From positions 96,001 through 160,000 of IMG/VR virus record IMGVR_UViG_3300044729_003129: a stretch of 64,000 bases of DNA; one strand, written 5' to 3'. Position 1 is the first letter of the stretch; every line of letters starts with the position of its first letter. A program made the translations under genes and the position numbers. The notes below the pieces were generated by a model, which saw only the letters and a program-made list of their open reading frames with translations, made no database searches and had not been told where the DNA came from. Of the stretch, positions 60,524 to 64,000 are shown piece after piece. Source of the stretch: a virus.

Positions 60524-61108
60524 ATGCCGTCTCTTTTTTCTAAAATTCAGTCTGATGCAGAAAAAACTGGATTCTTGCCTCGTACAAAAGAATCCAGAGA
60601 ATGGTTTTATCGTAAAATACGTACACTTACAAATGTATCTCCATCGAAAGTATTAAACGACGACTCATTGACAGTAAGAAATAAACCTCTTATTGGTCGT
60701 ATGTTTATGTTTTTATATGATCCAAAATACAAAGAGACGCTGCCGTATTATGATAGATTTCCACTTATACTCATGGTAGGCCCAGCAAAAAAAGGATTCT
60801 ATGGATTGAATCTACACTATCTTCCACCTCGTCAACGCGCAATATTTTTTGATCGCTTGATGGATTATATGAACAACAATAAATTAGATGAAACTACACG
60901 GTTTAAACTATCATATGATTTACTAAATGGCACATCAAAATTGCGTGCATACGCTCCATGTTTTAAACACTATTTGTATGCACACATCACTTCTAAAACT
61001 GTTGAGGTGCTTCCAAAGGAATGGGAAACTGCACTTTTTCTACCAACTGATTCTTTCGTTGGTCAAAAGAATGCCTCAATCTGGCAAAAAACACGCACAC
61101 TAATCTAA
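60524..61108 (+). CDS. gp2: DNA end protector protein
   Basis: GRMFMFLYDPKYKETLPYYDRFPL, GLNLHYLP and CFKHYL. Confidence 0.95.
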   Translation: MPSLFSKIQSDAEKTGFLPRTKESREWFYRKIRTLTNVSPSKVLNDDSLTVRNKPLIGRMFMFLYDPKYKETLPYYDRFPLILMVGPAKKGFYGLNLHYLPPRQRAIFFDRLMDYMNNNKLDETTRFKLSYDLLNGTSKLRAYAPCFKHYLYAHITSKTVEVLPKEWETALFLPTDSFVGQKNASIWQKTRTLI

Positions 61109-61111
61109 ACT

Positions 61112-61639
61112 ATGTCATCTTCAATAAATGATTTTAAATCCGCAATAATGCGAAATGGGGGCTTAGCGCGTCCAAATAGATTTTCAGTAACATTTGCTAG
61201 TTTACCGGGTTCATCATCTGTATCAAGGGATATTTCATTTTTATGTGAGTCTGTTAATATACCTGGAAAACAAATTACAACATTAGACTATGATATAGGC
61301 ACTCGTCGTCCATTAAAAATACCAACTGGTTATATTGAAGATGATGTAACAATGACATTTATTTCAACTAATAATAACGCCATTAAAAAGGCGATAGATG
61401 AATGGATGAAAAAAATAATAAACATTGATTCCTATCTACTCGCTAAAGATCACCAAACTTACAAGACTGATATTACTATTACGCAGCTAAACGAAAATGA
61501 CAAAGAAATTCAAAATGTTAAATTGCAAAACGCATATCCAATAACTTTGAATTCTATTGAACTAGATAATAATGCTGAATCAACAATACAAAAAATATCT
61601 GTAGTATTTACGTATGATAAATTAGATATTAAGAAATAA
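61112..61639 (+). CDS. gp54: Tail-tube-like baseplate tube initiator (gp54-like)
   Basis: GGLARPNRF, LCESVNIPG and NAYP..L..IEL; a gp19 paralog. Confidence 0.7.
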   Translation: MSSSINDFKSAIMRNGGLARPNRFSVTFASLPGSSSVSRDISFLCESVNIPGKQITTLDYDIGTRRPLKIPTGYIEDDVTMTFISTNNNAIKKAIDEWMKKIINIDSYLLAKDHQTYKTDITITQLNENDKEIQNVKLQNAYPITLNSIELDNNAESTIQKISVVFTYDKLDIKK

Positions 61640-61663
61640 TTAAACAATAAATAACATTATATT

Positions 61664-62374
61664 ATGCCATTACCAATCCTAGAATCCCCAAAATATGTAT
61701 TGACTGTACCATCTACATCACAGTCAATTGAATATCGTCCTTTTCTTGTAAAGGAAGAAAAAATATTGCTGCTCGCACAGGAGTCAAACAGCTCATCAGA
61801 AATGATGTCCGCGATTAAAGACATTATACGAGCCTGTACATTCGGTGTCGTTGACCCAAACGATTTGACTTCGTTTGACTTAGAGTATATTTTCTTAAAG
61901 TTACGAGCAAAGAGCGTAGGTGAAGTTAGCAATATCAAATGTAAGTGCGATCATTGTGAAACTTACAACGAGGTGTCTGTTAATATTGATGATATTGAAG
62001 TAACGTGGCCAGTTAAAGAAATTAGCAACAAAATTATGTTAACTGATAAAATTGGTGTGGTTCTAAGACATATACGTGTAAATGATATGTCAACGATTAT
62101 AAGCACATCTGAAGTTGATATGGACACAATAACAAATATGCTTATTGCTTCAATTGATTCAATCTTTGATGACAGTGGAGTGTATCCCTCAGCACAGTCG
62201 TCTCGCGAAGAGTTGCTAACATTTGTTAACAGCTTAAGCCGAGCTCAACTTAATAAAATTGAAGAGTATATATCAAACTCTCCTAAACTACAACATAGTG
62301 TAAAATTTAATTGTACTGGTTGTAAGACTGACAATGATATTACACTTGTAGGCACACAAGCTTTTTTCGAATAG
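61664..62374 (+). CDS. gp26: Baseplate hub assembly chaperone
   Basis: MPLP....PKY.LTVPS..IEYRPFLVKEEKILL, FDLEYIFLKLRAKSVGE, two CxxC pairs; ends GTQAFFE. Confidence 0.93.
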   Translation: MPLPILESPKYVLTVPSTSQSIEYRPFLVKEEKILLLAQESNSSSEMMSAIKDIIRACTFGVVDPNDLTSFDLEYIFLKLRAKSVGEVSNIKCKCDHCETYNEVSVNIDDIEVTWPVKEISNKIMLTDKIGVVLRHIRVNDMSTIISTSEVDMDTITNMLIASIDSIFDDSGVYPSAQSSREELLTFVNSLSRAQLNKIEEYISNSPKLQHSVKFNCTGCKTDNDITLVGTQAFFE

Positions 62375-62544
62375 CCCTCTCGCATGAATCGTTGTCTAAC
62401 TATTATCAAACAAATTTTGCATTAATGCAGCATCACAAATATAGTTTAACTGAATTAGATACAATGATACCATGGGAGAGGGAAATTTATATTGCAATGC
62501 TAATAAAACACATAAGAGAAGAAGAAGAAAAACGTAAAAAATGA
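62362..62544 (+). CDS. gp51: gp51-like hub assembly protein in the -1 frame of gp26, probably reached by frameshift; not in ORF track
   Basis: FFRIALSHESLSNYYQTNFALMQHHKYSLTELDTMIPWEREIYIAMLIKHIREEEEKRKK; the first in-frame ATG (62425) lies inside the conserved motif. Confidence 0.8.
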   Translation, partial: FFRIALSHESLSNYYQTNFALMQHHKYSLTELDTMIPWEREIYIAMLIKHIREEEEKRKK

Positions 62545-64000
62545 CCGCAGAATCGTCACTAGCCCAGGTTGTAAAAGAATTACAAAGTTCTAATTTGTCT
62601 CAAGATCTTATTCTTGATACAATCGATAACTATGATTTTACACTTGCATCAAATGTTGCTAAAGAAAATACGACAGATGTTCCTACTTTTTTAGATAAAT
62701 TAGTAGGCATAGCAGGCGATTTAAAAGGCAAATTTGATGTATTAATACGATCTAATGTAGTGTTAGCAAAGCGATTAGAAGGCAACAAATTACAAGAGCG
62801 TGAAAATCGTGATGAATTGCTTGACGCACTTGGAAAGTTAAAACCAGAAAAGACTAAGAGTGGTGTTAAAACAACTAAATTTGAAATGCCAGGCGGAATA
62901 TTTGGGGGATTGCTGTCTGTGGCTGCATTAATGGGTGGATTTGTAACAGGATTTATATCTCAGCTCACGTCTCCAATATTTGCTGCACTAAAAAATGCAA
63001 AACTATTTCAAAAAATATCTAGTGTTTTTTCTACAGTTAGCAAATTTTTTACTGGCATTGTATTAAGTTTAAAAAATTCTCCTTTATTTAAAGGAACATT
63101 TACTGTAATAGAAAAGATTGGCGGTCTCTTAAATAAATTTAAATCAAGTAAAATTTTTATGCTACTTGGTAAAATCTTTTCAATATTTGGAAATTCACCA
63201 GTATTAAAGACTATAACAGCTACATCTGGAATAATAGGAAGCGCCTTTTCTGCTCTTACGGATATATTTGGCGGGATGTTTAGGTTTTTTAAGATTGGTT
63301 TGACGCTTGGAAGCAAATTTGCTGGTTTATTTAAATTTTTAGGCGGTCCATTTACTTTAGCACTCACTGGAATAATAAGTGGTATTATGGGTGCAATTGA
63401 CGGCTTTAAGAAAGATGGATTAATCGGTGGATTAAAGGGGTTTTTAGTTGGTGCATTTGATGGATTAATCGGAGGTCTGCTAGATCTTGTAAAAGATGGA
63501 ATATCTTGGGTATCTGAAAAACTTGGATTTTCAGAATTTTCTAAATTTTTAGATAGTTTTTCCTTTACTGGTTTATATTCAAAGTATATAATTGATCCAC
63601 TGTTTGGAATGTATGCTGAAATTGGTAAATTTATAGGTGAAATACCTATGATGGTTACTGATTTCTTTACATCACTACCTGATAAAATTAGTGTATTTTT
63701 TACTTCGGCAATGGATTCATTAACAACTATTTCAGATGATATGAGTGAAGTTGTAAATAATTTTAATAAGGCTGTATTACGAGCAGTATTACCAGATCCA
63801 AAGGCAAAAGGAGGAATGTCTTATTATTTAAAATTAGCAATACCAGATTCTTTATATGAGTATGCATACAGCAGTTCTCCAAAAGAAAAAGAATCAACTA
63901 ATTCTACATCAGAAAAATTAGCAACCGCTGCAACGTCTTCTGAAAAAATATTAAAGGCTACATCTACAAATAATTTTACCGAACTAAGCAAAACTGAAAA
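62541..64000 (+). CDS. Tape-measure-like protein (gp29-like), 5' part, runs off window end
   Basis: ATGA overlap with the gp51 stop; MTAESSLAQVVKELQ...RLEGNKLQERENRDELL coiled coil, then Gly/Phe/Lys-rich amphipathic helices; follows gp26/gp51. Confidence 0.7.
   Translation, partial: MTAESSLAQVVKELQSSNLSQDLILDTIDNYDFTLASNVAKENTTDVPTFLDKLVGIAGDLKGKFDVLIRSNVVLAKRLEGNKLQERENRDELLDALGKLKPEKTKSGVKTTKFEMPGGIFGGLLSVAALMGGFVTGFISQLTSPIFAALKNAKLFQKISSVFSTVSKFFTGIVLSLKNSPLFKGTFTVIEKIGGLLNKFKSSKIFMLLGKIFSIFGNSPVLKTITATSGIIGSAFSALTDIFGGMFRFFKIGLTLGSKFAGLFKFLGGPFTLALTGIISGIMGAIDGFKKDGLIGGLKGFLVGAFDGLIGGLLDLVKDGISWVSEKLGFSEFSKFLDSFSFTGLYSKYIIDPLFGMYAEIGKFIGEIPMMVTDFFTSLPDKISVFFTSAMDSLTTISDDMSEVVNNFNKAVLRAVLPDPKAKGGMSYYLKLAIPDSLYEYAYSSSPKEKESTNSTSEKLATAATSSEKILKATSTNNFTELSKTE

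What the first reader, a model, noticed from the sequence alone, without database searches (positions are those of the whole stretch)
62338..62544. Probable programmed -1 frameshift fusing gp26 to gp51 just upstream of the tape measure: a lambda G/GT-type chaperone system in a T4-like phage
Seen: gp26 ends GCT TTT TTC GAA TAG, with a canonical X XXY YYZ slippery heptamer T TTT TTC at 62362-62368, one codon before the stop. The -1 frame is open from 62338 and reads FFRIALSHESLSNYYQTNFALMQHHKYSLTELDTMIPWEREIY... to TGA 62544, which overlaps the ATG of the tape-measure-like gene. The first in-frame ATG (62425) falls inside the gp51 motif and would drop NYYQTNFAL. Established: long-tailed phages make two tail-assembly chaperones (lambda gpG/gpGT) by a -1 frameshift directly upstream of the tape measure gene; in T4 itself genes 26 and 51 are separate. 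Inference: this phage makes a 236-aa gp26 and a roughly 293-aa gp26-gp51 fusion, so the small gp51 annotated in related phages may be the T-frame of a frameshift product.
Basis: partly seen in the sequence, partly recalled or inferred. Interest (0 to 1): 0.88.

Follow-up and report, generated by a model that had tools for sequence, protein, structure and literature searches.

The report
Frameshift in baseplate-hub chaperone gene
One tail-assembly gene of this uncultured 174-kb T4-like phage very probably makes a 236-residue protein and a 293-residue version because some ribosomes slip back one base on a strictly conserved TTTTTTC run; phage T4 makes the same pair from two separate genes (26 and 51), and I found no paper or database record that reports the slip.

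Summary
The gp26-like gene (61664-62374) ends GCT TTT TTC GAA TAG. T_TTT_TTC lies at 62362-62368. The -1 frame is open from 62338 to TGA 62544 and encodes the gp51 tail.

In 185 unique junctions from 232 related loci, all 185 have T_TTT_TTN in the same phase. The codon before it always ends in T although its amino acid varies. Tail similarity starts right at the run, mostly upstream of any start codon.

T4 gp51 is a gp26 paralogue plus this same tail. T4 gp26 ends ...EFFELL with non-slippery GAG TTC TTT.

The genome, about 97% complete, holds one gp26 and one tail.

The first 90-95 residues of gp26 fold like tail assembly chaperones such as that of HK97, in two models.

A stem starting 6 nt after the run pairs with the P-W-E-R-E codons about 95 nt downstream. 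Covariation at synonymous sites is suggestive only.

The next gene, 570 aa, is tape-measure-like on weak evidence.

My best reading is a lambda G/GT-type -1 frameshift in the T4-type hub chaperone, at confidence about 0.87. This scan has noted the same thing on other DNA many times (223 notes, at least 193 genomes). I found no publication.

The parts
61664..62374 (+). gp26-like baseplate hub chaperone gene in the 0 frame, 236 aa including the TAG stop. This is the short product and the G analogue.
   Evidence: ORF list. Pfam PF12322 E 1.5e-56 and phrog_150 E 2e-60. AF2 model pLDDT 87.7. Residues 1-95 match tail assembly chaperone structures at Z 6.8-7.7.
62362..62368 (+). Slippery heptamer T_TTT_TTC in X_XXY_YYZ phase. 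Both tRNA-Phe can re-pair on UUU UUU after a -1 slip.
   Evidence: Read directly. An in-phase T_TTT_TTN is present in 185 of 185 unique related junctions, and the codon giving X always ends in T (AGT, TCT, GAT, AAT, GCT and others).
62368..62544 (+). The -1 frame extension: 58 codons (RIALSHESLSNYYQTNFALMQHHKYSL...) plus TGA. This is the gp51-type tail. The fusion product is residues 1-235 of gp26 plus 58 residues, 293 aa in all.
   Evidence: Translation. phrog_634 E 1.8e-27. BLASTP to T4 gp51 residues 201-244, E 6e-6. Homologues carry Pfam PF28602 Gp51_C. It is the only copy in the genome.
62369..62374 (+). 6-nt spacer (GAAUAG, which includes the 0-frame stop) between the heptamer and the stem.
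   Evidence: Read directly. The spacing follows from the stem named.
62375..62386 (+). 5' arm of the proposed stimulatory stem (CCCUCUC-G-CAUG), lying on the codons for A-L-S-H of the tail.
   Evidence: MFE fold of 62369-62500 is -32.2 kcal/mol, z -3.3. The arm duplex is -21.8 kcal/mol.
62471..62482 (+). 3' arm of the stem (CAUG-G-GAGAGGG), lying on the codons for P-W-E-R-E of the tail.
   Evidence: Same as the 5' arm. It is the best partner of the 5' arm in 57 of 78 related sequences.
62541..64000 (+). Tape-measure-like gene. The ATG overlaps the tail's TGA. It runs off the window; the full length is 570 aa in the genome.
   Evidence: ORF. Full length from L097 242-1954. Weak tape-measure PHROG matches on the window part, best E 1.5e-9. 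No Pfam hit. BLASTP to T4 gp29 (590 aa) is not significant.
61112..61639 (+). Tail tube protein gene (gp19 type), directly upstream. This is context.
   Evidence: PF06841 E 9.6e-9 and phrog_45 E 2.3e-43.

Best explanation
A programmed -1 ribosomal frameshift. Most ribosomes translating the gp26-like gene terminate at TAG 62372 and give a 236-aa chaperone. A fraction slip back one base on U_UUU_UUC (62362-62368), with both tRNA-Phe re-pairing on UUU UUU. These ribosomes read on in the -1 frame to TGA 62544 and give a 293-aa gp26-gp51 fusion. The slip is probably helped by a stem whose 5' arm starts 6 nt after the heptamer (62375-62386) and pairs with 62471-82, and perhaps by the adjacent 0-frame stop. 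By analogy with lambda G/GT and P2 E/E+E', the shared body would hold the tape-measure-like protein encoded next, through an N-terminal chaperone-fold domain. The rarer long form would use its helical tail to dock this complex to the hub or tube during baseplate-hub assembly. Neither form would stay in the virion. Shown here: the sequence anatomy, its conservation, the homology to T4 gp26 and gp51, and the fold match. Inferred: the slip itself, its efficiency, the role of the stem, and the binding partners.
For: (1) The heptamer is invariant and in phase in 185 of 185 unique junctions from 232 loci. These include cyanophages and Pelagibacter, Methylophilales, Vibrio, Sinorhizobium and Pseudomonas phages. 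The X-giving codon is always NNT while its amino acid varies (S, D, N, A, G, R, F). The background is T3 57% and Phe TTT 70%.

(2) The gp51-type tail is always in the -1 frame. It is closed 0-33 codons upstream of the run, and in 11 of 82 junctions a stop lies immediately 5' of TTTTTT. Conserved residues begin at the run. The first ATG is at codon 18 or 19 in 54 of 82 junctions, inside the conserved motif.

(3) The 0-frame stop moves (0-8 codons after the run) while the run stays in place.

(4) T4 gp51 has a PF12322 body (E 3.9e-52) plus the same tail (E 6e-6). T4 gp26 and gp51 are paralogues (E 2e-6).

(5) Natural control: T4 gp26 keeps the ...GLKEFFELL end but encodes it as GAG TTC TTT, which is not slippery.

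(6) The genome, 97% complete, has one gp26 and one tail.

(7) Some GenBank records leave the tail unannotated for want of a start codon. Others call ORFs of only 30-62 aa.

(8) N-terminal domain fold: 2ob9 (HK97 tail assembly chaperone), 3klu (YqbN) and 3fgx are the top three of 48,161 chains in two independent models, at Z 6.8-7.7, with the next hit at 4.9-5.7.

(9) Stem: fold z -3.3 and duplex -21.8 kcal/mol in the window. It is the best partner in 57 of 78 relatives. 79% of cells pair, against 31-60% when the partner is slid. Doubly synonymous pair 24-123 shows CG 26, UA 31 and UG 1, with 20 cells unpaired.
Against: There is no direct evidence of the fusion protein: no peptide, no reporter assay, no ribosome profile. 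U_UUU_UUC is not among the most efficient bacterial heptamers, so the yield may be low. The window has no local hairpin after the site (62369-62430, z +0.72). The proposed stem closes a loop of about 84 nt, which is unusual for a stimulator. Both arms encode conserved residues, RNAalifold finds no consensus over all 80 sequences, and the tree-aware covariation tests are individually not significant (median p 0.06-1). In the wider set only 64% of cells pair, so the stem is specific to some clades. The fold-match Z values are below 8. The tape-measure identity of the next gene is weak. Shine-Dalgarno logic cannot exclude internal initiation, because this phage's confirmed gene starts lack such sites too.
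Confidence: 0.87

Rival explanations
1. Transcriptional slippage. RNA polymerase adds one extra U on the T6 run, so a fraction of mRNAs carry the tail in frame and give the same 293-aa fusion without any ribosomal slip.
For: The product would be identical. A preference for T at the base before the run, and the 62 of 185 sites with 7 or more T, also lengthen the homopolymer.
Against: From general knowledge, a run of 6 T is short for efficient polymerase slippage. The run is in one codon phase in 185 of 185 junctions. C at position 7, which ends the run, is the commonest state (121 of 185) and is enriched over the background TTC usage of 30%. A stem at the 6-nt spacing typical of ribosomal stimulators is present. 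None of this is decisive.
Confidence: 0.07
2. Two separate proteins, as GenBank annotates relatives. gp26 ends at TAG, and a small gp51 of about 40-50 aa starts on its own at TTG 62392 or ATG 62425, or by re-initiation after the gp26 stop.
For: Start codons exist in frame. Many records annotate such ORFs. In Vibrio phage CZ01 an ATG lies 2 codons after the run. This phage's genes lack clear ribosome-binding sites anyway.
Against: Residues between the run and the first start codon (RIALSHDSLxNxYxTNFxL) are conserved across the family. The first ATG is at codon 18 or 19 in 54 of 82 junctions and at codon 32 in 5. The annotated 'gp51' ranges from 30 to 62 aa, or is absent, in relatives with nearly the same tail. 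This reading does not explain the invariant in-phase T6, nor the T4 gp51 architecture.
Confidence: 0.05
3. The tail is a decaying remnant of a once-fused gene and is not expressed.
For: None beyond the lack of direct expression data.
Against: The tail is 45-85% identical across 542 phage records. It is always open for 56-69 codons, and it is the only stretch conserved at the DNA level in the 2.9 kb compared.
Confidence: 0.01

Closest known systems
Phage T4 gp26 (208 aa) and gp51 (249 aa), hub assembly chaperones (Leiman et al. 2010, PMC3004832, Table 2; Pfam PF12322 T4_baseplate, PF28602 Gp51_C)
   Same: The protein family is the same. The window's body matches PF12322 at E 1.5e-56, and both T4 proteins match it at E 8.8e-64 and 3.9e-52. 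The tail aligns with T4 gp51 residues 201-244. The end of T4 gp26...GLKEFFELL, matches the ...G(L)xxFFx end found here. The outcome is the same: one short form and one long form with the tail. The review states that gp51 is required for assembly but absent from the particle.
   Different: T4 encodes the two forms as two diverged paralogous genes on opposite strands, with no slippery run. Here one gene gives both forms, so their bodies are identical. In T4, genes 27 and 28 lie between 51 and the tape measure gene 29. Here the tape-measure-like gene follows at once.
Lambda gpG/gpGT and the conserved -1 frameshift of tail assembly chaperone genes in long-tailed phages (Xu, Hendrix and Duda 2004; cited from my own knowledge)
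   Same: An X_XXY_YYZ heptamer lies near the 3' end of the gene between the tail tube gene and the tape measure gene. The -1 ORF has no start codon of its own. Short and long products share an N-terminal body. The N-terminal domain here has the fold of a solved member, the HK97 chaperone 2ob9, at Z 7.0-7.6.
   Different: There is no sequence-level membership in any Pfam tail-assembly-chaperone family. The body is about twice as long and carries extra domains, including two Cys pairs (CxxC at 93-96 and 217-220). The extension is short (58 aa) and helical. The heptamer is U_UUU_UUC, not G_GGA_AAG. Binding partners are untested.
Phage P2 E / E+E' tail chaperone frameshift (Christie et al. 2002; cited from my own knowledge)
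   Same: It occurs in a contractile-tailed phage. The -1 slip takes place on a T6 run (TTTTTTG as I recall), in the gene just before the tape measure gene.
   Different: The protein family is unrelated at the sequence level, and the proteins are much smaller. I did not test this comparison here.

Membership tests
T4 gp26/gp51 hub chaperone family (Pfam PF12322 T4_baseplate) | Match to PF12322 above the curated cut-off of 24.5 bits | tested here: met
   191.9 bits, E 1.5e-56, profile positions 2-219 of 219. The genome-wide search finds this one copy only.
T4 gp26/gp51 hub chaperone family (Pfam PF12322 T4_baseplate) | gp51-type C-terminal tail (Gp51_C, PF28602; phrog_634) | tested here: met
   phrog_634 E 1.8e-27. 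T4 gp51 residues 201-244 align at E 6e-6. PF28602 is not in the local Pfam copy, but it is recorded for homologues 60-78% identical to the tail. Here the tail lies in the -1 frame.
T4 gp26/gp51 hub chaperone family (Pfam PF12322 T4_baseplate) | Required for hub assembly and absent from the finished virion | not testable with these tools
   Known for T4 gp51 only (PMC3004832).
Tail assembly chaperones with programmed -1 frameshift (lambda G/GT type) | Canonical X_XXY_YYZ heptamer near the 3' end, conserved in phase among relatives | tested here: met
   T_TTT_TTC at 62362-62368. 185 of 185 unique junctions carry it in phase.
Tail assembly chaperones with programmed -1 frameshift (lambda G/GT type) | Conserved -1 ORF without a start of its own, overlapping the end of the upstream gene | tested here: met
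   The -1 frame is open from 62338 only. Conservation starts at the run. The first ATG lies inside the conserved motif in most relatives.
Tail assembly chaperones with programmed -1 frameshift (lambda G/GT type) | Gene order: tail tube gene, then chaperone, then tape measure gene | tested here: inconclusive
   The tail tube gene upstream is clear (phrog_45, E 2.3e-43). The downstream 570-aa protein has only weak tape-measure PHROG matches (E 1.5e-9 on the window part, none at E 0.001 or better for the full length). It has no Pfam hit and no significant similarity to T4 gp29.
Tail assembly chaperones with programmed -1 frameshift (lambda G/GT type) | Chaperone fold of the shared N-terminal body | tested here: met
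   2ob9_B (HK97 chaperone) at Z 7.0 and 7.6, rmsd about 4 A, 84 residues aligned. 3klu_A (YqbN) at Z 6.8 and 7.2. 3fgx_B at Z 7.7 and 7.4. These are the top three in two models, with the next hits at 4.9 and 5.7. Z is below 8, so the support is moderate. Foldseek alone gave E above 0.2.
Tail assembly chaperones with programmed -1 frameshift (lambda G/GT type) | Sequence membership in a curated chaperone family | tested here: not met
   No Pfam tail-assembly-chaperone family matches at E 0.1 or better. The profile search against PDB sequences finds none. I therefore say that it works like G/GT and shares a fold, and I do not file it as a sequence member.
Tail assembly chaperones with programmed -1 frameshift (lambda G/GT type) | Frameshift product made in vivo; body binds the tape measure, extension binds the tube or hub | not testable with these tools
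   Needs mass spectrometry, a reporter assay and pull-downs.

The most novel reading that the evidence does not exclude
The -1 frameshift is the ancestral way in which the whole T4 superfamily makes its two hub chaperones, and these chaperones are the homologues of lambda G/GT. T4 and its close relatives later resolved the recoding into two paralogous genes, 26 and 51, and lost the slippery run. On this reading, T4's 'essential protein of unknown function' gp51 is the GT-type adaptor of the tape measure. The stimulatory RNA is an unusual long-range stem that is written into conserved codons of the very extension it helps to express.
Probability: 0.55. Interest if true: 0.8.

Novelty: new member of a known kind. 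Interest (0 to 1): 0.74.

Why it matters
The conserved tail-chaperone frameshift is a textbook feature of long-tailed phages. [quoted passage not shown]

If this reading holds, four things follow:

1. T4 gp26 and gp51 become the counterparts of lambda G and GT.
2. The tiny or missing 'gp51' genes in hundreds of marine, soil and Vibrio T4-like phage records (542 records) are mis-annotated.
3. There is a clean natural example of one recoding event replaced by gene duplication.
4. There is a directly testable hypothesis for what gp51 does in hub and tape-measure assembly.

The practical consequence is that annotation pipelines should join these two ORFs.

Tried and rejected
- **Local hairpin after the site in the window:** none (62369-62430, -4.1 kcal/mol, z +0.72).
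- **RNAalifold on all 80 aligned junctions:** no consensus structure.
- **Rfam on 62200-62650:** no match at E 1 or better.
- **Terminator and promoter scan of 61000-63000:** no terminator, and promoter-like sites are not above chance.
- **In-frame gp26-gp51 proteins of 279-300 aa in the metagenome protein set:** I first took these as natural fusions. The three whose DNA I read are singletons. One has a 4-T run with the old TAG still in place, one has a 7-T run, and one has an extra G four codons upstream of an intact TTTTTTCGCATAG. They are most likely homopolymer or assembly errors, so I do not use them as evidence. I used one only as a fold proxy.
- **Foldseek against PDB:** nothing at E below 0.2.
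- **Profile against PDB sequences:** nothing relevant.
- **BLASTP of the next gene against T4 gp29:** not significant.
- **Shine-Dalgarno reasoning against internal starts:** dropped, because this phage's own clear gene starts lack such sites.
- **A purine-rich GG motif about 10 nt upstream of the run (GUAGGC), as a dnaX-like stimulator:** it cannot be separated from an invariant Gly codon, so I did not pursue it.
- **Covariation on a tree:** the results point the right way but are individually not significant.
- **Literature:** eight full-text searches found no report of this frameshift.

Full report
**What is in the window**

The + strand carries four genes in a row:
- a gp2-type DNA end protector (60524-61108);
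- a gp19-type tail tube gene (61112-61639);
- a 236-codon ORF (61664-62374);
- an ORF that starts at 62541 and runs off the window.

The 236-aa protein matches Pfam T4_baseplate (PF12322) at E 1.5e-56 over the whole profile. It ends GCT TTT TTC GAA TAG, so T_TTT_TTC at 62362-62368 is a canonical X_XXY_YYZ heptamer, one codon before the stop.

The -1 frame has TGA at 62335-62337. From 62338 it is open to TGA 62542-62544, which overlaps ATG 62541. Read from 62368, this frame gives 58 residues. They match the gp51 family phrog_634 at E 1.8e-27 from residue 2 onwards, and they also match the last 45 positions of the gp26 profile phrog_150.

**Comparative test**

A blastn search of 2.9 kb against 50,697 phage records found only the junction (about 62329-62555) conserved at the DNA level. 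The hits were cyanophages, Pelagibacter phage Mosig and Methylophilales phages. A tblastn search with the tail found 542 records, which also included Vibrio, Sinorhizobium, Pseudomonas and Caulobacter phages.

I read ten annotated records and 240 IMG/VR loci. Of these, 232 loci had enough sequence, giving 185 unique junctions. The results:
- Every junction has T_TTT_TTN in the same codon phase near the end of the gp26 frame: 121 TTTTTTC, 62 TTTTTTT and 2 TTTTTTA.
- The codon that supplies the first T is always NNT (AGT, TCT, GAT, AAT, GCT, GGT, CGT, TTT), although its amino acid varies.
- Elsewhere in these same genes, S/D/N/A codons end in T only 57% of the time, and Phe is TTT 70% of the time.

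The remaining counts come from the first 82 unique junctions:
- The 0-frame stop lies 0, 1, 2, 3 or 8 codons after the run, so the run is conserved independently of the stop.
- The -1 frame is closed 0-33 codons upstream. In 11 of 82 a stop lies immediately 5' of TTTTTT.
- The -1 frame then stays open for 56-69 codons.
- The first ATG in that frame is at codon 18 or 19 in 54 of 82. That is the M of the conserved F-A-L-M-Q-H-H motif, so about 18 conserved residues lie upstream of it.

No record annotates a join. Two RefSeq records leave the tail unannotated, and others call ORFs of 30 to 62 aa.

**T4 as key and as control**

In T4, gene 26 and gene 51 are divergently transcribed. Four results tie them to this locus:
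- T4 gp51 (249 aa) matches PF12322 over residues 1-201 at E 3.9e-52, and gp26 matches it at E 8.8e-64.
- The two T4 proteins align with each other at E 2e-6.
- The gp26 profile built here aligns with gp51 at 92% probability.
- gp51 residues 201-244 align with the window's -1 tail at E 6e-6.

T4 gp51 therefore has exactly the architecture of the predicted fusion, and T4 gp26 has that of the short form. T4 gp26 even ends ...GLKEFFELL, the same motif as here. Its codons, however, are GAG TTC TTT, which is not slippery. At the equivalent place in gp51 (...DVF|KLLVNPDEIFTFYQINH...) there is no T run. Where no slip is needed, the synonymous positions are free.

The window's genome is an IMG/VR record of 173,760 bp, 97% complete. 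It has one PF12322 gene and one tail, both at this locus.

**Is it a lambda G/GT-type chaperone?**

An AlphaFold2 model of the window's gp26, built on 63 sequences, has pLDDT 87.7 and pTM 0.81. I aligned it to 48,161 PDB representatives without Foldseek. The top three chains all lie on residues 1-95:

| Chain | Description | Z, window gp26 model | Z, second model (P0011) |
|---|---|---|---|
| 3fgx_B | uncharacterised Bacillus protein | 7.7 | 7.4 |
| 2ob9_B | HK97 tail assembly chaperone | 7.0 | 7.6 |
| 3klu_A | B. subtilis YqbN | 6.8 | 7.2 |
| next hit | unrelated | 4.9 | 5.7 |

The second model is of a homologue only 34% identical to the window's gp26 (P0011, pLDDT 85.3), and it gave the same three chains on top.

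These Z values are below 8, and Foldseek alone found nothing. I therefore call the fold match moderate but reproducible. There is no sequence-level membership in a chaperone family.

In the fusion proxy the tail is helical. Confidence is low for residues 240-270 and good for the last helix, 271-298. This suggests that the tail needs a partner.

The downstream gene is 570 aa, close to the 590 aa of T4 gp29. It is the last gene of the block, since gp32 and gp59 genes follow on the other strand. Otherwise its tape-measure label rests on weak PHROG matches. It has no Pfam hit and no significant BLASTP similarity to gp29.

**A possible stimulatory RNA**

The 62 nt after the site do not fold (z +0.72). 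The 132 nt after it fold to -32.2 kcal/mol (z -3.3). In that fold a stem starts 6 nt after the heptamer. CCCUCUC-G-CAUG (62375-62386, codons A-L-S-H) pairs with CAUG-G-GAGAGGG (62471-62482, codons P-W-E-R-E), with a duplex energy of -21.8 kcal/mol.

On a gap-free alignment of 80 junctions:
- 79.4% of cells pair, against 74.7 +/- 0.6% in shuffles (0 of 500 reach the observed value) and 31-60% when the partner is slid.
- The pair formed by the third base of the Leu codon and the third base of the Glu codon is C-G in 26 sequences and U-A in 31 (Fisher p 7e-11).
- The Ala/Gly third base and the Arg third base pair as C-G in 47 and U-A in 8 (p 1.6e-6).
- The downstream segment at the P-W-E-R-E codons is the best partner of the 5' arm in 57 of 78 sequences. 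Most of the others have a nearer partner, and 72 of 78 have a partner of -8 kcal/mol or better.

The caveats are real. Both arms encode conserved residues. RNAalifold gives no consensus. On a gp26 tree the switches are repeated (at least 5-15 per pair), and independent pairs go the same way far more often than the other way. Each test alone is nonetheless not significant (median p 0.06-1). In the wider set of 181 junctions only 64% of cells pair. I treat the stem as a good hypothesis for this clade, not as established.

**Alternatives**

- **Transcriptional slippage** would give the same protein. It is disfavoured by the short run, the fixed codon phase and the excess of C at position 7, but it is not excluded.
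- **Independent initiation of a small gp51** does not explain the conserved residues upstream of the start codons, the invariant run, or T4 gp51.
- **A dead remnant** is excluded by the conservation of the tail.
- **In-frame fusions found in metagenome protein sets** look like homopolymer or assembly errors, and I do not count them as evidence.

**Novelty and what the scan already holds**

Eight full-text searches found no report of this frameshift. The T4 tail review lists gp26 and gp51 as hub assembly chaperones and calls gp51 essential and of unknown function.

This scan's own notes already hold the same reading on other DNA: 223 notes in at least 193 genomes. I had reached the T4 paralogy before reading them. 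For this window I add four things: the 185-junction survey, the non-slippery T4 gp26 control, the chaperone fold match in two models, and the explicit stem with pair counts.

The mechanism is a standard one in a family where, as far as I can find, it was not known. I therefore class it as a new member of a known kind.

Noticed in passing
L092 2190-2250, L093 about 2200-2215, L094 about 2190-2215 (metagenome contigs encoding P0019, P0037, P0011): Metagenome protein sets hold singleton 'in-frame' gp26-gp51 proteins of 279-300 aa. In the three whose DNA I read, the frame is restored by a 4-T or 7-T run, or by an extra G four codons upstream, while the old stop or the intact heptamer remains. These are probably homopolymer or assembly errors, and they could mislead family models.
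   Followed up: partly
window 62541-64000; full gene L097 242-1954: The 570-aa protein after the tail has Gly-rich hydrophobic repeats and an Asn-rich C-terminus. It has no Pfam hit and no significant similarity to T4 gp29, although it sits where the tape measure should be and has nearly the same length. Relatives annotate the gene at this position variously as hypothetical protein, endolysin, chitinase, peptidase M15 or 2OG-Fe(II) oxygenase.
   Followed up: partly
window 62347-62352 (GUAGGC), about 10 nt 5' of the heptamer: An invariant Gly codon (G230), usually preceded by a purine, gives an AGG/GGG/GAGG-like motif 9-12 nt upstream of the run in most relatives. This is the spacing of the Shine-Dalgarno-like stimulator of the dnaX frameshift. 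It cannot be separated from the protein constraint with these data.
   Followed up: no
L003 1517-1702 (Synechococcus phage ACG-2014j), L004 1513-1692 (S-CAM4): RefSeq records of these cyanophages leave a gap of about 180 bp after gp26 where the conserved tail lies. P-HM2 annotates only a 30-aa 'gp51'. This is an annotation error common across the family.
   Followed up: yes
A2 columns 20 and 127 (window 62375 and 62482): Ala (GCC) goes with Glu (GAA), and Gly (GGC) goes with Gln (CAA), at the outermost pair of the proposed stem (C-G 34, G-C 15). This is a non-synonymous change on both sides that keeps the base pair. It rests on few independent events (at least 3) and fades in the wider set.
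   Followed up: partly
window 61940-61951 and 62312-62323 (Cys 93, 96, 217, 220 of gp26): Two CxxC pairs in the gp26 body, on neighbouring beta hairpins of the model, look like a zinc ribbon. Small zinc-ribbon proteins (LysW, NrdR, ZitP) appear among the weak fold matches at Z about 3-3.6. Many relatives have lost one or both pairs, as in the PDDxxT variants.
   Followed up: no
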